Of a DNA stretch of 64,000 bases, positions 11,256 through 21,269 are shown piece after piece (the stretch's first letter is position 1; the number at the start of each line of letters is the position of its first letter). The notes beneath the pieces are model-generated. The model worked only from the letters and a program-made list of their open reading frames with translations. It had not been told where the DNA came from and did not search any database. Both the position numbers and the translations under genes were made by a program. This DNA is from Microbotryum violaceum (lineage: Eukaryota), in the NCBI GenBank assembly GCA_001244265.2, contig CDLV01000011.1:124001-188000 (forward strand), read 5' to 3'.

Positions 11256-12032
11256 GGTGGGCAAATTTATTATGTGGTGGAAAACTTCTGTGATCGAATC
11301 GGTCTGGTGGAGCTGTTGTCGATTACGGCAAGGCGGCCTTTGCGCGTCAATGCCGGCGTACGCGACTTTAGCGGCGTCGGGGACTACGCGTTGACCCAGC
11401 ACGGACTCCGACGACGACGACGAGGAGGACGTTGACTGAATGAAAGTCAGCCTTGCTAAACGAGAGGAGCCAGGGGAGCGGATGCCTGGGCGGGACGAGG
11501 GTCGAAGTCGGGGTGACGGTAGGGGAATGGAAGATTGAATGAACGGTAAACAGGGTCGGTCTGAAATGAGGAAGCGGGGGCAAAGTCCAGAAAACGAAAT
11601 GCAACGGGCGCACCTTGCAGAAACGACCCGGTGCTACGGCAGCGGGCGCGACGAGGCGCGCGCCCATTGTCGGCAGTCGGCATGACACACGCGACGACAT
11701 CATGAGCGACGGCTGACGTACGATTCAGACTTCTGTTGCTCTCGGCTGCTCACCGACAGAAAACTCCAAGTATGTGGCAAGGTCTGGTCACAAGGTACGC
11801 CATGATATTCACTGAGGAACACACTGCAGTGTGATGATAGGCGCATCGATACAGAATTCCTTCGGTTTACCATTCCGGCATCCGACCTGGTCGAATTATA
11901 CAGTTCTACTTTGATGTCCAGGGATATCTAGAGGGATTGTCGAGTAATACTTTATCAAAAACAGTTGGTAAGTTGCCCCGCTCGTAGACCCAACTCGGAG
12001 AACGGGGTCTTTTCCTTAATCTAATAGATTTC

Positions 12033-12420
12033 AACCAGTGGGAATCCGTTAAATTTACGGGAGGGTGAAATTCAAAGAGCAGAAGAATCGAACAATATAC
12101 ATGATTTCAGTATTTCAGCAGAGGCAGAAAGACGCAATACGAAGTACAGCAAGGAAACAGTTCTCCATTCATCGCCCAAACAGCCTGCCCGTTGCTTGTT
12201 GCCAAAAACGTCGTCGTCGCGTCGGTTCAATTTGGCTTCAAACACTCGTGCAATGAGATCCGGTCGGTTGCATGCTGGGTCGTTCGGCCCCAGTGCAGCC
12301 TTGATTTCCGGCCATCCGGGGTCGCACCTCACCGTGATGAACAGCGGAGACCTTCAATATTTGACAACGTACGCCATCGCATCCTGGTAACGCTGCGTGA
12401 TCCCGCGCGGTCTATTCTTG
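12033..12420 (-). repeat. Left arm of terminal inverted repeat; putative Helitron 3' end at 12035
   Basis: - strand ends CCGTAAATTTAACGG-ATTCCCA-CTGG|T; matches 16056-16440 in reverse orientation. Confidence 0.85.
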
Positions 12421-14600
12421 AACGTCAAGCCCGAAATCACCGAACGTCCAATCTGATCCGGGGTCAAGCCGTTGGCAACAGAGTCGGTGATGCTTTGGGC
12501 CGTAGTGAGGCGCAGGTTCTTCCTGGTTGCCAACCGGATGTAGTTGAGTCGAGCGGTCTTGATTTGGGAGTATCCGTCGATCACGAACTCGAAGAAGAGA
12601 CGCTGGGTTCAATGCGGGATTGAGAAGTAGTCGTCGCGATCGTGCGAGTAGTACGCAAATAATCGGGAACGCGACAGGTCGATCCACCTCGACCGCTTTT
12701 CGTTGACCTTCGTTATAGATATTCAAACATTCTATGTCAGTCTGTGCTTGCGTCTCAACAGAATGGAACATGTGAGAGAGAGCCGAAGACGCTTACCTTC
12801 ACCATCACCACTCTCTTCGTCCTCCTCGTCATCTTCATCTTCATCGCGCGGTCTTCGCCCTCCGCTTCGTCTTCTTCATCCGGACAAAGACAGGCAAGTA
12901 CCTCGCCCAAGTGGATACCATTGTCGATCTGCTCTCGGTGTCTGGCGATTGGCGGCCCAGTTTGGTTGAACCCGCAAAGAGGAATGTTGGGGTGGAAGCC
13001 ATCTTCACCTGCGGGGAAGAGTAGTGGCTACCGGAGAGGCATCCCAGACGGATGGAGCGAGCTAAAGATTTGGTACTTGGGCCGACCATCGGGACATCGA
13101 TTACCGTGCACCTGGGGAATAGGATCTTGCGGTCTACGATCTCCTGTGTTGGTGCCGTAATCGCAGATAAGCATCGCCATGTCTGCTCGACGTAGGAAGG
13201 TTGTGGTTGCGTCGGTCTCGGCCAGATGGTTGGCAGAGGCGCAGGACCCACTCTTTGGCCGATGCGAACACCCTCACAAAGCGGCTCGACACTGGGAGTG
13301 CGAAAGGTCCAAGTCGAACGGACACTTCAGCACGGGCTGCTCGCAGGGCAAGGTGTGGCTGCCTTCCCCTCCCCAACCCGATACCGAGTATCGATATCTA
13401 CTTGAAGGCTCGGATAGCGGTCAGTTGCTCCGTCCAACAACATTCGTTTGCTGCAGATCCACATGAACTGTGCGACCCACGCACACAGAAGCTAAAGCAT
13501 TCCGCGAGAATGCCCGGTCGTACAACAACGCGCTGTCGTTCACTTCGCTCGCTACTCACTTCGACCAGACACGACTGGGCACTCTGGGACCCCCCTTGTT
13601 TCGCGTGTTTGGTCGCCTCTATCATCGACTCGACGCCCTGATCCCTGCCGTGAATCAATGCCCAGCCTTTGCTCAGACATGGCTCATCGACCCGGCCGAG
13701 GCCAACGACTTTCGACCTGGACCCAACGGCGCACACAGTCGCATACAAAGATCTACTTTGACCAAGCTCGAGTCCATGTCGCGCACCGGAAATCGCTTTG
13801 TGAGGGAATTCGCATCGGCCAAAGCCCCCTACCACCTGGCCGAGACCGACGCAGCCACGGTACGCAACATGGACTCGAGCTTGGCCAAAGTAGACCTTTG
13901 TATGCGACTGTCTGCGCCGTTGGCCGTTGGGTCCAAGTCGAGTGTCGGTTGCCTCGGCCGGGTCGATGAGCCATGTTTGAGCAAATGCTGGGCGTTGGAT
14001 GACGGCAGCGATCAGGGCGCCAAGTGGATGGTAAAGGCGACCAAACACGCGAGACACGGGGGGTCCTAGCGTGCTCACTTGAGTTTGGTCCCAGCCCTGG
14101 CAGTGGGCAGCGAGCGAAGTGAAGGACAGCGCGTTGTCGTACGACTGAGCGTTCTCGCAGAACGCTTTAGCTTCTGTATGTGGGTTGCACAGTTCAGCAT
14201 GTGGATCTGCAGCAGACGAATGTTGTTGGACGGAGCAACTGACCGCTATTCGAGCCTTCAAGTAGCTGTCGATACTCTGATTGGGCCGGGGAGGGGGGAG
14301 GCAGGAGGAGGCAGGCGCACTTTGCCCTGCGAGCAGCCCGTGCTAAAGTGACCGGTCGACTTCGTCCTTTCGCACTTCCGGTGTCGAGCCTTGCAGTGGG
14401 TGCACACGGCCGTCTGCGGGCCGAGGCGGTCGGCGATTGAAACGTGGGGCTTGAGGGGTTTGAGGCCGGTTCTAGCCCTGCGGGGGCTCCGCTGGCCTTG
14501 ACCAGCTTGACCCGCAGCAGGAGGTGCACGTGGTGGTGGGGCGTGGGACGTTCAGCGCGAGCTTGCTTTAGGTGGCAACCGGCCACGAGCGGCGGCGTGT
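12170..14600 (-). pseudogene. Decayed, truncated Helitron Rep/helicase N-terminal region (intron-containing), interrupted by an inverted copy
   Basis: In order on the - strand: LGPQTAVCTHCKARH...FSTGCSQGKVRLP; AFCENAQSYDNALSFTSL; RVFGRLYH...PAFAQTWLID; RRNHNLPTSS; SLHPSGMPLR*PLLFPAGEDGFHPNIP; IDGYSQIKTARLNYIRL; QRYQDAMAYVVKY; CDPGWPEIKAALGPNDPACNRPDLIARVFEAKL. Stops and frameshifts present; no HUH or helicase motifs. Confidence 0.88.
13283..13858 (+). repeat. Inverted copy of a Helitron Rep segment
   Basis: Encodes FRENARSYNNALSFTSL...GPPLFRVFGRLYHRL...PAFAQTWLIDP...NRFVREFASAK; reverse-complement match to 13859-14390 and to 13203-13283. Confidence 0.9.
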
Positions 14601-14828
14601 GCCTCCACTGTGCCTCCCGCCTCCTCCTGCCTCCTCTTAGTAGCTCGCGTGCGCGTCCTGAACCCTTTGCTCGTGCTCAATCCCAACCCGTCCTGGTCTG
14701 TTCCACGCCTTCTCGTCCGTGCGGGTGTCGTTGTTCGATTTCTGACTTTCTGACTCGCTCATTGACCTTAGAGCGTCACTCCAGCCTGGCACTTGCCACT
14801 GCAGCCACCTCTCCGCACCAGCATAATC

Positions 14829-15802
14829 ATGCCCGAACCCTCCGCTCCAACCCGCTCCAAGGGCATCCCACTGCGAGTACTGATCAACCGAAGAGAGTGC
14901 TTCTTTCCCGACATGATGTTTCGCTTCTTCGAGTACGCGGGTCGCCGGCCGAAAGCCCGCTTTTACAAGGAAGCCGAGATCATCTGGCAGGCCGTCTCCG
15001 AGAAGACGTGGCGAGAGCTCGAGGCCTACAGCAAGGCACTCCTAGATTACTGCGTGGAGATTGAGACTCGACTTGAGCAACGTTCGGGCTGGAACATCTT
15101 TTCTCCACAGGTATGGGCGGCTCGGCTAGAGTTGATGAAGTTCTATTACGGGGAGCGTGGCCTCTGCAACGATTACTGGAAGGTCATCAGGTACTCTGGA
15201 TACGGTAAGTACTTCTGTGTGTATATGTTCTCGTGACCTCCGCGTTGTATCTGCTGCGGTAGTGTCTGACTCAGACTCGCCCTCGCCCCTGTTCACATTC
15301 GATCCTACGAGTCTTACACGCCCTCCGGGACAGATTCATCTCCGAATACAATGCTAAGCACCCCGAGCTCGACCCTCCTCTTCGACGATCCGACAATCTC
15401 ATTCTTCGCCTAGGATCGCTGCCGTCGTTTCGAAGCGATCGCGTGGCCTACTTCTCATTTCCCGATCCAAGGCCCAGTGGACCCTCTGGATTCCTCGAAG
15501 GCGAGCAGGAGCATCTCAAGAGTAGGTCTGGATTTTTACCCATCATCGCCCTGAAGGAAACATCGGACTAAACTCGTTGTGCGCCCTCACCGTGAACGTG
15601 TACATTCGCAGAACACGGTGGTATTGTTTTCGACGGTACGAGTACGGGCTTGCCTACCGACTTCGATGTGGTGGTTGATGCGAGGTCAAATTTCCTGCCG
15701 AAAGACGACGAGATCCTGGGGATCGCGGCTCTCCTCCCCGGTCCCGAGAGCGAGTCGCGCAAGACGGATAGCGAGCGGCTCGCCAGGTTCGAAGGCGACT
15801 GA
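14829..15802 (+). CDS. Orphan 3-exon gene inside the Helitron composite, 246 aa, unknown function
   Basis: Exons 14829-15190, 15334-15521, 15612-15802 (362+188+191=741 nt) join with GT-AG introns into an uninterrupted frame MPEPSAPTRSKGIPLRVL...KVIR|FISEYNAKHPEL...EHLK|KHGGIVFDG...RLARFEGD*. Confidence 0.75.
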
Positions 15803-16055
15803 CAATGACTGAAGGATGGATGCATTATTCGTACCCTACGTTTCTGTCAAGGCTGAATTCGTCACCACTAGCCCTCTGCTTCAGACGAATTCACTTCCTT
15901 CCGTCTCAAATACGACCACTTTATGTCCAATCGTTGTTGTCGTCAGAGCAGCAGTACACTGTAATCAATTCAGATGTCGGATCAGGGCTTGGTCTCCGCT
16001 CTAAGAGCTGTTCAACGCGGTCTACAGCTGCACAGCTGGCTACATAGAGGCGGCG

Positions 16056-16440
16056 CAAGAATAGACCGCGCGAGAACACGCAGCGCTACTAAAGGGGAGT
16101 CAGATGCGATGTGGCGTGCGTCGTCAAATATGGAAAGCCTTCGCGCCGTTCATCACGGTGAGGTGCGACCCCGAATGGCCGGAAATCAAGGCTGCACTGT
16201 GGCCAGACGATAAAGCATGCAACCGACCGGATCTCATTGCACGAATGTTTGAAGCCAAATTGAACCGACGCGACAACGACGTTTTTGGCAACAAGCAACG
16301 GGCAGGCTGTTTGGGCGATGAATGGAGAACTGTTTCCTTGCTGTACTTTGTAGTGTGTGTTCTTAAGCTCTGTTGAAATCATGTAGGCTGTTTGATTCTC
16401 CTCCTCTTTGTCACGTTAATTTAACGGGTTCCCACTGGTT
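16056..16440 (+). repeat. Right arm of terminal inverted repeat; putative Helitron 3' end at 16438
   Basis: Encodes FITVRCDPEWPEIKAALWPDDKACNRPDLIARMFEAKL...GCLG and ends CGTTAATTTAACG-GGTTCCCA-CTGG|T. Confidence 0.85.
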
Positions 16441-16610
16441 TTCTTTAAGAATCGTCATAACAGCATAATTGTATTGAGGCTAGCAATCTTCGTAATGAAC
16501 TCTCAAAAGTCACTTGAGTGAGCGGGTTTTACCTCGCTCTCGCGCCCGCCCTCGTCGTCCCGGCATCATCTTGACCAACTCGGCCGCCATCTACTTCAAT
16601 CCACGACAAC

Positions 16611-19403
16611 ATGAGTGGTCAGTCACCTCGACACCCTTGATTCAGACTGTGCACTGACGCCTAGCTCTGTTCCGAGGGTGTTGCAGACCGGTGCGTGCGA
16701 GCACGGAGCAGCACACGAGGCTTGGCAGAGCACGTGACGGTCACGGTGCATGCTGCATCCTAGACTGATGTATTACCTACTCGATGGGCCTCACAGACCA
16801 ACCCTTCGACACGAGGAAGGCCATTCGAATAGGCGGGAGGGTAGGTTCATCCACACGGCGTTCTACGAGCGCTGGGCAGGTCGACCGGGATGCTGACCTC
16901 ATCCCACCTCTTTACCAGAATACGATGATCGAGACGTAAGCTTTCTTTCTTTTTTTTTTGGTCGCGGCCAGGGTCACCGATGCGGTCCTCTTGTGCTTCG
17001 TGCTCAGCTGACCTGATCGTCCTCGCTCAAAAACACCGCTCCGGTCATGACCATGCCGATACCCATACCCTATTATCGCCCTGTCCCGTGTCCCGAACTG
17101 GCAACACGTTTTCCCCATTGCTCACGCTTGACGCTTGCCTCTTCGCCATCCCATCGGTTCCCCGCGGCCGACGATCGATACCATACAGCGATCGAGCCGC
17201 CACCGACGACGCTCCGAGTCGCGCTCGCCACCTCCAGCCCGTCGAAACCGATCCCGCTCCCGTTCGCCGCGTCGTTCGGCCTCCCCACCGCGCAAAATGG
17301 AAGTCGACCGTGCCGTCGACCCACCCAAGCGCGAGTTCCGCTCATCGCGCTACAACCCCGACCGCGACCACGGCTCGAGGGCAACCGGATCGACGCCCTA
17401 CGACCCTGTGAGGAAGGCAGCGGCGAGACAGACCGCCGCGATTGAAGCGAGCAAGCATTCCAAGAAGGAGAATAGGGTCTACATCACCAACCTCAGCTTC
17501 AACGTCAAGTGGAACGATTTGAAGGACTTTATGCGGGAGGGTCAGTGATTATCATTATTATTATTATGACTTTGGTTGTGCCTCAGTGGGGGAGGGGGTT
17601 AGCGCAAATCCTTTGGGGACGACACCACTCTTTTGGAGCCCCTGCTTGGCGCAGTGGGGCCGGACTGGGACGCGCCGGACAGGCCTAGACACGGTTGGAA
17701 GGGGATCATGAAAGAAGAAAGGCTGATTATGGTCGTACTTTTTTGCTGGGTGTGCGCGCACGTATGGGATGGTCATGGGTGGGGTGATGGAAAACCCGCG
17801 TCAAATCTTGGACGACTTTTACGGCTATCGACTTCCTTCGCCATCTTGTATCGCCAACACGCCTCGCATCACACCAACAGCTGGAAACGTTGTCTTTTCC
17901 GAAATTATGACTCTCCCTAACGGCATGTCGAAAGGATGCGGGTCAGTCTCTTTTCGTTGCTCTTCCGTGCACCGAACTGCGCAATTGACTCAACTACGAA
18001 CGCTGTTACCGATCTATCCAGTGTGGTCGAATTCTCACGACCTGAAGAGGCACAACGTGCGATTAGTCAACTCAACGAACAGCCTTTGTTGGGACGACCC
18101 GTCTACGTGCGCGAGGTGGGTGATCGTCGCAGGCCACTCACGTCACGTCGAGCGGAGATTAACCCCCGAGATTCTCACACTCACAGGACCGAGAAGAAGA
18201 GGCGCGATACGGCTCAGCGGCCGTCTCAGGACCCCGACCTGGGTATACCGGACCCGGTGCGCTCACCGCTCCTACCCGAGGTGGTTTCTCCGCCGGTGTC
18301 GGTCGAGGAGGCGGATTCGCTTCCTCCGCCCCTGCACCAGGTCAAGGACGACATCTCTTCATCCAAGGCCTTCCTGCGAATGCGGGTTGGCAAGAGTTGA
18401 AGGATCTTTTCCGTGCTGCGGGTCAGATCATTCGTGCGGATGTCAAGACTGCTCCTGATGGGACCCCCACGGGTACCGGTACGGTTGTCTTTGAGACGAG
18501 CCAGGATGCTCAGAATGCGATTGGTCAGTGTTGGCCTCGGACCAGCTACTCTGTGATAAGTTGCTGAACCCAGGTCATCGATCTCCTCCAGCGATGTACA
18601 ACGGCTACGAAATCGACGGGGCGATCCTCGAAGTACGTGAAGACCGATTCCCGACCGGGGGTGGCGGAGGTGGCTTCGTACCCCGAGGTGGATTCGCCGG
18701 AGGTCGAGGCGGTTTCCGAGGTGGTTTCAACGGTGGTTTCGGCGCGCCGCCCCCTCACCTTCCTTTCGCTCCTCCTGGGTTCATGCAAGGTGGTTTCAAA
18801 CCGCTTGTGGCTACGCCGAACAAGCAAATTTTCGTTAGGAATGTGAGTCTCGCCCACGCGCGCGCACCCCTCGACTGTGCCAAATCGACAAGAGAGCTGA
18901 CGTCTCCTTCGGCTTATTGGCCTGTAGTTACCTTGGTCTACTGCGGATGAAGATCTGGTCGAATTGTTCCAGACGACGGGAACGGTCGAGGAAGCGGCGA
19001 TGCTTATCGATGAAGCGACCGGTCGAGCCAAAGGATCAGGCGTGGTTCAATTCGCAACGATCGAAGAGGCCCAAACGGCGATCGCTCAGTTCCAGGGTTA
19101 TACCTATGGAGGTCAGTAGTCGGTTCCTAAACTTTTCCTTGATTTCGGGTGGGGCGTGACTCATCCTCTTTTTTGCATTCTTTCCCTACGATTTTTGCCA
19201 AAGGTCGCCCTCTACAAATCGAATTCAACGCGAGGTACAAGAACTTTCAAGGGAGTGGTGTACCCGCGGGTGCACCGACCGGTCCTCGTGGGCATCAAGA
19301 GGCGGATCAGGAGAGGGTTAATAACGGCGAGTACGGTGATGGCAGTGCTGATGCGAGTCATGGGAATAGGGAAGGGAGGGAACCTTTGCCCGAGGGGTTT
19401 TGA
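16611..19403 (+). CDS. SR/RGG-containing three-RRM RNA-binding protein (Gbp2/Hrb1-like), multi-exon
   Basis: RS-rich N-terminus; RRM1 RVYITNLSFNVKWNDLKDFMRE-AGNVVFSEIM...SKGCG-VVEFSRPEEAQRAI; RRM2 LFIQGLPANAGWQELKDLFRAAG; RGG box; RRM3 QIFVRN-LPWSTADEDLVELFQTTG; 5' micro-exons of 7, 4, 44 and 17 nt splice in frame. Confidence 0.88.
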
Positions 19404-19726
19404 GCGGACCATTGGGGAACGGTGGGGGAGATGCAATGGTTTCTGGGCGACTTGGGATGTTTTGATAAATCTGAGGCGGTGTGATGAAAATGGACCACAA
19501 AAATGAAGTTGGTTCCTTTGTCACATACTGGGCTTGGTGTGAGCGTTGTTGAGAGATTGTGCGATAATATCCGCCTGAGGTGATGCCGGGATAGGCCGGA
19601 CTAATGGGAGACGATGGGTTGCCGAGAGCCGATCGACAAGTCCGAAGCTTGGCCTCTGTTTGCTCACTCGTCCTCGTTCTTCACCTCAGACTCCCAAGAA
19701 AACACCGCCAAGTCAAAGCCGCGACC

Positions 19727-21217
19727 ATGTCCTTCTCCCTCGCTTCAACATCAAGACACCTCCTGAGCAAAACCGGGTCCTGCTCCTCCGCCACTACATG
19801 CTATAGCAGCTTCGCCCACGCCATGATCGTCCCCGGGCCGCGGTCACTCCACTCCGGCGTTGTCACACCAGCTTCCGCTTCATCGAGTAACGGGCAGGGG
19901 TTGAAACAGAAGATCCTAATGATGGATGAGATCATTTTGGCCAAGAAGGACTATGCGGATCTGGCTTCGCGTTACGAAATGATTGTCAGTCGAGCCAGTG
20001 GCAGTTTCCCAACTGCAGTGGCTAGTCCAGGTCCACCCCCCCCCCATTTGAATGATGCTTGAGCGTGCTGACCAGCGCCTGAGTTTTTATTTTTTTATTT
20101 TTATTTTATTTTTATTTTTTTCCGCCAACCCGTAGCCACTTTCCTCCAAAACGCGCGAAGAGTTTATTCAAGACTGCGCCTCGGAAAAGAAGTACGCGAG
20201 CGTGGAAGGAATGTATCGTCATTTCAAAGGCGCTTCGACCAAAGTTACGGGCAGGTTTGATCATGAATTGGTGCAGGCGTTGCCGAAGAAGCTGGTCAGA
20301 GAGGTCTTCGATCTACTACGAAAAAGGGAATACGTTATGTATACTTATGATGCTTTGGTGTGATGCCGAGCGCTTTTGACAGAAATTCGTCACCCACAAC
20401 GGAGCTGGCTACGATCAAAGTCAGTACTCGGAGGTCGATCTCACTCTGAGCTTCCCCCTACTCAAGCTGACCGATCTCTTCTTCCCACATAGTCGACATC
20501 CCTTCCTGCACCTCGCGCCACATTCAAGTCTCGAACGTTCCCGTAGCAGTCGACGACGCCACGGCCGATACGGCGCTTTTCCTACTCCTCGGTTCCTTAC
20601 GTCAATTCGGTCTTGCGCAAACCTCCCTCCGATCAGGCACCTTCAACACCGATTTGAAACTGTCCCATGATCCTCGTGGTAAGGTCTTGGGTATCATAGG
20701 GATGGGAGGGACCGGAAGGGCTTTCGCGAAGAGGTGTAAGAGTTTAGGAATGGAACTGAAGTACCATAATCGGAATCGATTGGAGGAGGAATTGGAAGCG
20801 GGGGCGATCTACGTCGCGAACATGGAAGAATTGTTGAAAACGTCGGACGTCGTTTCAATTAACGTTCCTTTGAACCCGAAGACGCATCATCTTATTGGAG
20901 CGAAAGAGTTCAAGATGATGAAGTCGTCTTCGATCCTTATCAATACTTCCCGAGGACCGGTAGTGGATGAAACCGCGCTCGTCGAAGCTTTGGAAAAAGG
21001 CGAGATCGCGGGTTGTGGTTTGGACGTGTACGAATTCGAACCCAAGATCCATGAAGGGCTCCTCAAGTCCGAGAAGGCCTTTCTCTTACCTCATGTAGGT
21101 ACTTTGACGTACGAGACGCAGGAGGAGATGGAAGCGGTCTGTTTGAGGAATCTCAAACAAGGACTCGAGACGGGCAAATTGGGGTTCACGGTCCCGGAAC
21201 AAAAAGGGCAATTCTAG
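19727..21217 (+). CDS. D-isomer-specific 2-hydroxyacid dehydrogenase (glyoxylate reductase-like), with possible mitochondrial presequence
   Basis: HNGAGYDQ, VSNVPVAVDDATAD, GKVLGIIGMGGTG, ILINTSRGPVVDE, GLDVYEFEP, LLPHVGT motifs; Ser/Arg-rich, acid-free N-terminus. Confidence 0.92.
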
Positions 21218-21269
21218 ATGGAAAGTCATGTTAGGATGCTATTACAATACCCATCAAGCCCCTTTAATT

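What the first reader, a model, noticed from the sequence alone, without database searches (positions are those of the whole stretch)
14829..15802. Intact, spliced 246-aa orphan gene preserved inside a heavily decayed transposon
Seen: three exons join in the correct phases (2 then 1) with no stops, while the surrounding Rep sequence has many stops and frameshifts. The ORF track shows only exon 1. The protein has an aromatic-rich helical N-half (FRFFEYAGRRPKARFYKEAEIIWQAVSEKTWRELEAYSKALLDY, a faint by-eye HMG-box resemblance only) and no signal peptide. Inference: selection on, or recent acquisition of, an undescribed Helitron-borne gene such as an anti-silencing factor, a transposition accessory or a selfish drive/toxin component. 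These functions are speculation.
Basis: partly seen in the sequence, partly recalled or inferred. Interest (0 to 1): 0.75.

Follow-up and report, generated by a model that had tools for sequence, protein, structure and literature searches.

The report
Ordinary fungal gene beside Helitron debris
This is a real, spliced gene of the anther-smut fungus Microbotryum lychnidis-dioicae, already annotated as a hypothetical protein and part of a small gene family so far seen only in that genus, and it sits between two broken rolling-circle transposon pieces rather than being carried by one.

Summary
The three-exon gene at 14829-15802 (+) is real. It is MVLG_02646 of Microbotryum lychnidis-dioicae. Intron-less contigs in three public runs join 15521 to 15612 (3 of 3 runs) and 15204 to 15312 (1 run) or 15334 (1 run).

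It is not an orphan. I collected 21 family members (22 with the window's product) from four named Microbotryum species, plus six unnamed proteins, in two old clades. The M. saponariae orthologue is 89% identical.

It is not shown to be Helitron-borne. The flanks are two separate decayed Helitron remnants in opposite orientation, each with its 3' terminus pointing away from the gene. The gene has no second copy in the window, and it lies in a gene-dense autosomal stretch.

The protein has no Pfam, PDB-sequence or fold match, although the model is confident (pLDDT 83.8). Its molecular function stays open.

Verdict: an ordinary lineage-specific host gene next to transposon debris; low interest.

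The parts
14788..15987 (+). Minimum extent of the transcript of MVLG_02646: 5' UTR of at least 41 nt, 3' UTR of about 180 nt
   Evidence: Contigs of runs X1-X3 reach from 14788 (X1 record 5) to 15981-15987 (X1, X2, X3). Contigs cannot show true ends.
14829..15204 (+). Exon 1 coding part (125 codons + 1 nt), followed by a GTAAGT donor at 15205
   Evidence: 100% identical to MVLG_02646 (P0001). Donor used in contigs of X2 and X3, and the X1 contig ends at 15204..
15205..15311 (+). Intron 1 (107 nt, phase 1). An alternative acceptor at 15333 gives a frameshifted isoform; the annotated acceptor at 15413 was not seen.
   Evidence: Joints 15204>15312 (X2) and 15204>15334 (X3). Translations of all four models.
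15312..15521 (+). Exon 2 (210 nt). Its first 34 codons are missing from the annotated 224-aa model but conserved in homologues.
   Evidence: P0002, P0003, P0046 and P0056 keep the stretch. Run X2 joint.
15522..15611 (+). Intron 2 (90 nt, GT..AG, phase 1)
   Evidence: Skipped in contigs of X1, X2 and X3 (3 of 3). Present in contigs of run X10..
15612..15802 (+). Exon 3 coding part with stop TGA at 15800-15802
   Evidence: Conserved C-terminal motifs in the family alignment.
12034..14570 (-). Decayed, helicase-less Helitron remnant X. Piece C covers Rep aa 19-194 (14482..13859) and piece A covers aa 192-526 (13298..12108). Its 3' terminus ...CCCACTGG|T lies at 12034-12053. Its 5' side is cut off about 260 nt upstream of the gene's ATG.
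   Evidence: tblastn with P0027, P0026 and P0029. Terminus motif. Right-hand limit.
13275..13826 (+). Piece B: an inverted duplicate of Rep aa 47-207, sitting between C and A and forming a palindrome with C (85-92% complementary)
   Evidence: tblastn. (inverted repeats I2-I6).
16056..16439 (+). Piece D: a 5'-truncated Helitron remnant (Rep aa 423-504 plus tail) with 3' terminus ...CCCACTGG|T at 16420-16439. It is an inverted repeat of 12033-12420.
   Evidence: Pfam Helitron_like_N, E 1.1e-08, 36 bits against a cut-off of 28.9.. I1, 94% over 218 nt; 82% over 402 columns.

Best explanation
MVLG_02646 is a conventional cellular gene of Microbotryum lychnidis-dioicae. It has three exons and encodes 258 aa (about 30 kDa), with no signal peptide or membrane segment. 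It is one paralogue of a small multigene family so far found only in Microbotryum.

It stays intact because it is a host gene under constraint.

The protein is predicted to be one compact, mostly alpha-helical domain (about residues 11-200) followed by a disordered acidic, serine-rich tail. The near-invariant positions are mainly structural (Pro, Trp, Leu), with one Glu, one Asn and one Arg. By inference only, I read it as a non-enzymatic intracellular binding or scaffold protein.

Shown: the gene structure, the spliced form, family membership, and the anatomy of the flanks. Inferred: purifying selection, host origin and molecular role.
For: Identity:
- Exon 1 is 100% identical to MVLG_02646.
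- A supplement of PMC4469406 lists that gene as autosomal, scaffold 21, 136453-137426 (974 nt, the length of 14829-15802).
- Its listed neighbours include a gene with an RRM_1 domain and one with an IlvN domain within 6 kb. A Pfam RRM_1 match in the window at the expected place agrees with this placing.

Splicing:
- Intron-less contigs occur in X1-X3; run X10 has the unspliced form.

Family:
- 10 representatives at E<=1e-3 among 1.84 billion proteins.
- 15 proteins by profile search, all named ones from M. saponariae, M. silenes-dioicae, M. intermedium or M. lychnidis-dioicae.
- Conservation runs through all three exons.
- In the tree the window's protein pairs with M. saponariae P0056 (support 100/98; 89% identity over 195 aa). 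Two clades each hold an M. intermedium member.
- The fold is confident from 21 sequences: pLDDT 83.8, pTM 0.78.

Not transposon-linked:
- blastp of 3 family proteins against 42 Helitron proteins gives a best E of 0.05.
- None of the 15 family proteins has a recorded Pfam domain.
- The gene segment 14483-16055 matches nothing else in the 64-kb window.
- Rep pieces C and A are contiguous in Rep coordinates (aa 194/192) on the minus strand. D is on the plus strand, and both 3' termini face outward.
- Helitrons occupy only 0.04% of the M. intermedium genome (PMC10502011, passage).

No secretion signal:
- The maximum 19-residue Kyte-Doolittle hydropathy is 0.76.
Against: - Pieces B (+) and D (+) have the same orientation and bracket the gene together with piece C. 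A composite, rearranged Helitron containing the gene is therefore not formally excluded.
- No nucleotide sequences of orthologues were available, so dN/dS was not computed and constraint is inferred from protein conservation only.
- No M. silenes-dioicae protein more than 90% identical is on record. The nearest, P0002, is 76% identical and looks like a paralogue. The gene may therefore be lost, unannotated or fast-evolving in the sister species.
- One run shows only the frameshifting acceptor 15333.
- Genome-wide copy number was not measured, because no whole genome is held.
- The runs' RNA nature is only the tool's guess.
Confidence: 0.75

Rival explanations
1. Helitron-captured gene. A plus-strand Helitron (front part B, tail D with the 3' terminus at 16439) picked up a copy of a family member, plus the inverted piece C, in place of its Rep middle. 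The gene is thus a passenger inside a now dead, non-autonomous element.
For: B (Rep aa 47-207, 13275-13826) and D (aa 423-504, 16056-16439) are both on the plus strand and bracket the gene. D keeps a proper ...CTGG|T end. Helitrons of other basidiomycetes carry expressed genes of unknown function (PMC4289320, abstract read).
Against: C and A join exactly in Rep coordinates (aa 194/192) on the minus strand, so B looks like an intruder or fold-back duplicate of C, not the front of a second element. B starts at aa 47 with no 5' terminus. No Rep similarity was found in 14575-16005. There is no second copy of the gene in the window. The paralogues are old, and the family is present in the Helitron-poor M. 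intermedium.
Confidence: 0.12
2. The whole family began as a transposon-encoded accessory gene (of Helitrons or another element) and has since been domesticated. The present Helitron neighbourhood would be a relic of that origin.
For: The family is lineage-restricted, with no Pfam match or known fold and several paralogues per genome. This copy is flanked by Helitron debris.
Against: No family member is fused to or resembles any Helitron protein. Copy numbers among the annotated proteins found are low: 2 to 6 per named species. Members occur in a nearly Helitron-free genome. There is no transposase-like or nucleic-acid-enzyme motif.
Confidence: 0.08
3. The locus is a decaying or non-functional copy. 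It is transcribed, but its product is not used, as hinted by the frameshifting isoform and the missing sister-species orthologue.
For: The run X3 contig uses acceptor 15333, giving a stop after 151 aa. There is no M. silenes-dioicae protein within 90% identity.
Against: The in-frame isoform exists (run X2). The 258-codon frame has no stop. It is 89% identical to the M. saponariae orthologue over 195 aa. GC3 is 0.68, against 0.51-0.52 GC in the introns.
Confidence: 0.05

Closest known systems
MVLG_02646, hypothetical protein of Microbotryum lychnidis-dioicae p1A1 Lamole (P0001; name as given by the source)
   Same: Same locus and span (974 nt), same start, same stop and same intron 2. Exon 1 is 100% identical.
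   Different: The annotated 224-aa model uses acceptor 15413 and drops 34 conserved residues. The contigs and the homologues support acceptor 15311 and 258 aa.
Unnamed Microbotryum family (M. saponariae Chr6-3g08941 = P0056, Chr6-3g08793 = P0046; M. silenes-dioicae C012g06950 = P0002; M. intermedium BQ2448_5391 = P0061; second clade with MVLG_04360 = P0063)
   Same: Full-length alignment with shared motifs in all three exons. P0056 is 89% identical and is the sister in the tree.
   Different: None of these is characterised, and there is no Pfam family. Whether other members have Helitron neighbours is unknown.
Helitron-captured, expressed genes of unknown function in Pleurotus ostreatus HELPO elements (Castanera et al. 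2014, PMC4289320; abstract read)
   Same: A spliced gene of unknown function next to Helitron sequences in a basidiomycete.
   Different: There the genes lie inside the Helitrons' boundaries (abstract). Here the flanks are two remnants in opposite orientation, no 5' end was found, and no second copy was seen.
Gene-proximal Helitron and TIR insertions described for this genome (Perlin et al. 2015, PMC4469406; passages read)
   Same: Helitron pieces lie within 1 kb upstream and downstream of a gene, the pattern reported genome-wide.
   Different: Nothing beyond the local fold-back rearrangement (pieces B and C) and the inverted pair formed by D and the tail of A.

Membership tests
Helitron-borne (captured) gene | Lies between the 5' terminus and the 3' terminus of one element, both in the same orientation | tested here: inconclusive
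   The left remnant (C + A) is on the minus strand and the right one (D) on the plus strand, with both 3' termini outward. No 5' terminus or Rep front was found on the plus strand next to the gene. However, the plus-strand piece B further left leaves a composite reading open.
Helitron-borne (captured) gene | Amplified together with the element (several copies sharing Helitron flanks) | tested here: not met
   There is one copy in the 64-kb window. The 90% cluster of P0001 holds 1 sequence on 1 contig. The only other member named for this species belongs to the other clade. The whole genome could not be searched.
Helitron-borne (captured) gene | Distribution follows that of the transposon | tested here: not met
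   There are two family members in M. intermedium, whose genome is reported to hold 0.04% Helitron sequence (PMC10502011, passage).
Helitron (RepHel) element, for the flanks | Rep domain (Pfam Helitron_like_N) | tested here: met
   window:16065-16373 gives E 1.1e-08 and 36 bits against a cut-off of 28.9. tblastn finds 70-82% identity to Microbotryum RepHel proteins.
Helitron (RepHel) element, for the flanks | 3' terminus CTRR followed by T, preceded by a short hairpin | tested here: inconclusive
   CTGG|T lies at both ends (12034-12053 minus strand, 16420-16439 plus strand; 2 matches against 0.01 expected). The short palindrome upstream does not fold better than shuffled sequence (z -1.21 and -0.32). 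The CTRR rule is recalled, not taken from a call.
Helitron (RepHel) element, for the flanks | Intact Rep plus PIF1-type helicase reading frame | tested here: not met
   Only Rep aa 19-526 of about 1464 are represented. No helicase part matches anywhere in the window. There are frame changes and stops.
   No Pfam family matches exon 1 at E<=1. No HMG_box match among the 21 members at E<=10.
   No HMG-box entry appears among the rows shown by Foldseek or VIA-align. Absence from a list does not exclude a fold.
Classically secreted effector | N-terminal signal peptide | tested here: not met
   The N-terminus is polar, and the maximum 19-residue hydropathy of the whole protein is 0.76. No signal-peptide predictor was available.
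Microbotryum MVLG_02646/MVLG_04360 family (unnamed) | Full-length homology with conserved motifs in the N-terminal, middle and C-terminal parts | tested here: met
   phmmer E-values run from 1.4e-44 to 4.3e-04 for 10 representatives. The profile search gives 15 proteins. Alignments A1 and A2. blastp of the 258-aa product hits all 20 other members.

The most novel reading that the evidence does not exclude
The family is a new, genus-restricted all-alpha fold with an undescribed cellular role, and this copy owes its place or its regulation to Helitrons. Either it was moved here inside a composite element (B ... D) that later collapsed, or the cut-off front of remnant X, about 220-260 nt upstream of the transcript, now serves as its promoter.
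Probability: 0.1. Interest if true: 0.45.

Novelty: already known. Interest (0 to 1): 0.2.

Why it matters
It matters little beyond housekeeping.

- The public gene model of MVLG_02646 probably uses the wrong acceptor for intron 1 (258 aa rather than 224).
- The gene belongs to an uncharacterised family, so far seen only in Microbotryum, whose confidently predicted helical domain matches no solved structure. That makes it a modest target for structural or functional work on anther-smut fungi.
- The case shows that an intact gene between decayed Helitron pieces need not be a passenger. In this genome Helitrons are reported to lie close to genes.

Tried and rejected
- Whole-genome search of the window's assembly: none is held, so genome-wide copy number is untested.
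- The listing of cluster members for the six unnamed family representatives: the database was switched off, so their organisms are unknown and 'Microbotryum-only' holds only for the named members.
- The look-up of sequencing runs: no RNA holder listed. The kind of X1-X4 is only guessed as RNA.
- Parts without cover in X1-X3 (both Helitron flanks, and anything beyond 15987) say nothing about silence.
- Summed contig word depth in run X10 is 9-24 over 14576-16047 and 11-14 over 16600-17500, against 148-1600 over 12920-14575. The tool states this is no copy number, so I do not rest on it.
- RIP-like index (TTG+CAA)/(TCG+CGA): 0.31 over the CDS span and 0.44 over the gene segment; neighbouring genes 0.39-0.82; Helitron pieces 0.55-0.85; D 1.54. 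The overlap is too large to discriminate.
- Function searches all came back empty: Pfam, PDB sequences with the family profile (best E 0.98), Foldseek against PDB (no match at E<=0.001), VIA-align wide (best Z 5.6 over 47 residues, helical hairpins only) and BFVD (no match at E<=0.001).
- The ESM Atlas feature search suggested DUF3114 and DUF4470 (scores 0.92-0.93). The tool's own consistency check was poor (4 of 10) and Pfam gave neither family, so I rejected the lead.
- Weak tblastn hits of Helitron C-termini on the minus strand at 15724-16079 (E 0.3-1.5, with one at 6e-4 against a 2.2-kb database and low-complexity filtering off). The 6e-4 hit did not recur in the rerun, and I treated these as chance.
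- Papers: a full-text search for MVLG_02646 found 0 papers. It is not in the differential-expression table of PMC4469406 (file 15). It is not in the one held supplement of PMC5967549. Files 13, 14 and 16-24 of PMC4469406 were not searched.

Full report
**What the window is.** Exon 1 of the candidate (window:14829-15203) is 100% identical to the hypothetical protein MVLG_02646 of Microbotryum lychnidis-dioicae p1A1 Lamole (P0001, 224 aa). A supplement of the genome paper (PMC4469406, file 2) lists MVLG_02646 as autosomal, scaffold 21, 136453-137426, length 974. That is the length of 14829-15802, so the window starts 121,624 bases into that scaffold. The listed neighbours then fall at:
- MVLG_02645: 8918-11255
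- MVLG_02647: 16551-17547
- MVLG_02648 (RRM_1): 17768-19402
- MVLG_02649 (IlvN): 19664-21258

The Pfam RRM_1 match I found at 17921-18397 agrees with this placing. The setting is therefore a gene-dense autosomal stretch, not a transposon island.

**The gene model.** Enumerating GT/AG pairs shows that with the strong donor GTAAGT at 15205 only one acceptor (AG ending at 15311) keeps the frame open, giving 258 aa. Intron 2 is 15522-15611. I laid the contigs of three small runs, whose kind the tool only guesses to be RNA, and of one DNA-like run on 12000-17500.
- All three small runs (X1, X2, X3) join 15521 to 15612.
- X2 joins 15204 to 15312.
- X3 joins 15204 to 15334.
- The X1 contig stops at 15204.
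- Run X10 carries the unspliced sequence across both introns.
- The contigs reach from 14788 to 15981-15987.

Spliced RNA explains the intron-less forms best. The 15311 acceptor gives the 258-aa protein, and the 15333 acceptor shifts the frame with a stop after 151 aa. The public 224-aa model uses acceptor 15413, also seen in no contig, and lacks 34 residues that P0002, P0003, P0046 and P0056 conserve. Both introns are phase 1.

**It is not an orphan.** A full HMMER scan of 1.84 billion representatives with exon 1 found 10 proteins at E<=1e-3 (1.4e-44 to 4.3e-04). A profile search found 15 proteins. All those that carry a name come from M. saponariae, M. silenes-dioicae, M. intermedium or M. 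lychnidis-dioicae, and none has a recorded Pfam domain. Six representatives have no name, and their organisms could not be looked up. The alignments show conservation across all three exons.

In a maximum-likelihood tree of 21 rows the window's 258-aa product is sister to M. saponariae P0056 (support 100/98; blastp 89% identity over 195 aa). M. silenes-dioicae P0002 and then P0003 follow. A second clade holds MVLG_04360 (P0063) with its near-identical M. silenes-dioicae partner P0058. Each of the two clades has an M. intermedium member. The family therefore predates the split of these species and has several old paralogues per genome.

**The flanks.** The ORF at 16065-16373 matches Pfam Helitron_like_N (E 1.1e-08, 36 bits, cut-off 28.9). 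Its 42 database relatives are all Microbotryum proteins with that domain, some of them full RepHel proteins of about 1400-1600 aa. tblastn with three of these maps only the front third of Rep in the window:

| Piece | Strand | Rep aa | Window coordinates |
|---|---|---|---|
| C | minus | 19-194 | 14482..13859 |
| A | minus | 192-526 | 13298..12108 |
| B | plus | 47-207 | 13275-13826 |
| D | plus | 423-504 | 16057-16316 |

No helicase part matches anywhere. C and A abut in Rep coordinates (194/192), so they read as one minus-strand remnant interrupted by B. B is an inverted duplicate of C, with arms 85-92% complementary. The pieces are decayed: A is split over four HSPs in three frames, and D changes frame and shows two in-frame stops.

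Both remnants keep the same end, TTTAACGG(A/G)TTCCCACTGG followed by T, at 12034-12053 (minus) and 16420-16439 (plus). That is 2 matches against 0.01 expected. Loose ends of X10 contigs at 16439 and 16443 are in keeping with a repeat boundary at the plus-strand end. That CTRR|T is the canonical Helitron 3' end is recalled, not tested. The small palindrome before it does not fold better than shuffled sequence.

D and the tail of A are inverted repeats of each other: 94% over 218 nt and 82% over 402 columns.

The arrangement is therefore: outward-facing 3' end, then minus-strand remnant, then gene, then plus-strand remnant, then outward-facing 3' end. A Helitron has no inverted ends, so a passenger gene should sit between a front and a tail of the same orientation. 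That is not what directly flanks this gene.

Between 14575 and 16005 no Helitron protein gives a credible hit. The segment 14483-16055 matches nothing else in the window. blastp of three family proteins against the 42 Helitron proteins gives nothing better than E 0.05.

[quoted passage not shown] A later study reports that Helitrons occupy only 0.04% of the M. intermedium genome, and that the RIP-like process in Microbotryum targets TCG (PMC10502011, passages read). The family has two members in M. intermedium, so its distribution does not follow the transposon.

**The protein.** The 258-aa product is about 29.9 kDa with pI 6.5, and no 19-residue window is hydrophobic (maximum 0.76). It therefore has no classical signal peptide or membrane segment. 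Because a spliced product cannot be handed to the folding tool, I folded the 62%-identical paralogue P0046 with the 21-sequence alignment. The result was pLDDT 83.8 and pTM 0.78, with ten helices between residues 15 and 197 and a disordered tail. Searches gave the following:
- Foldseek against PDB: no match at E<=0.001.
- VIA-align over 48,161 chains: best Z 5.6 over 47 residues, helical hairpins only, which the tool rates as common for helical models.
- BFVD: no match at E<=0.001.
- PDB sequences with the family profile: best E 0.98.
- Pfam: no family for the three exons at E<=1 and only scattered weak single-member matches, best E 0.026, among the 21 members at E<=10. The HMG-box idea has no support.
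- ESM Atlas leads (DUF3114, DUF4470) failed the tool's own consistency check and were not matched in Pfam.

The near-invariant columns are Pro, Trp, Leu and Ile/Val, plus Glu, Asn, Gly and Arg, which gives no catalytic pattern. My reading, by inference only, is a non-enzymatic intracellular protein that acts by binding.

**Verdict.** It is wrong in detail on the intron 1 boundaries, the protein length and the intron phases.

Constraint on the gene is the natural reading, but the gene is neither an orphan nor shown to be Helitron-borne. The best explanation is an ordinary lineage-specific host gene whose intergenic flanks received Helitron insertions that have since rearranged and decayed (confidence 0.75). 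A composite, collapsed Helitron that once carried the gene remains possible (0.12).

Still open are synteny in other species, genome-wide copy number, dN/dS, and any function. The gene was not in the differential-expression table searched. Other supplements of that paper were not searched, so expression values may exist there.

That agrees with the many truncated front-end proteins seen, although I did not test that note itself.

Noticed in passing
window 13275-14482: Near-palindrome made of two inverted copies of the Helitron Rep front (B plus strand, C minus strand; arms 85-92% complementary, centre near 13823-13858). It interrupts an otherwise contiguous minus-strand remnant and looks like a fold-back duplication.
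   Followed up: partly
window 12033-12420 and 16056-16440: The two Helitron tails that bracket the gene region are inverted repeats of each other (94% over 218 nt; 82% over 402 columns). They are much more alike than either is to other species' copies, so they may be recent sister insertions or a local inverted duplication.
   Followed up: partly
window 15205-15333: Intron 1 has alternative 3' splice sites (15311 in frame, 15333 frameshifting), seen in different runs of one study. The public 224-aa model uses a third acceptor (15413) seen in none of them.
   Followed up: yes
window 16317-16376; proteins P0005, P0016, P0037: Many annotated Microbotryum 'proteins' are truncated Helitron fronts that end with the same read-through tail (...LGDEWRTVSLLYFV...) as piece D. 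This points to a recurrent short, helicase-less Helitron form whose tail begins right after Rep aa 505.
   Followed up: no
proteins P0021, P0030: Gene models in M. silenes-dioicae and M. lychnidis-dioicae (MVLG_05961) fuse a D-like Helitron fragment to ordinary host domains (SFT2; xylose-isomerase-like barrel). These are probably annotation artefacts of Helitron tails sitting just upstream of genes.
   Followed up: no
runs X13-X15: Runs under two other organism codes hold 65% of the sampled 31-letter words of 14400-16400, so near-identical DNA exists outside this strain. Yet no protein more than 90% identical is on record for the sister species, so an orthologue may be unannotated there.
   Followed up: no
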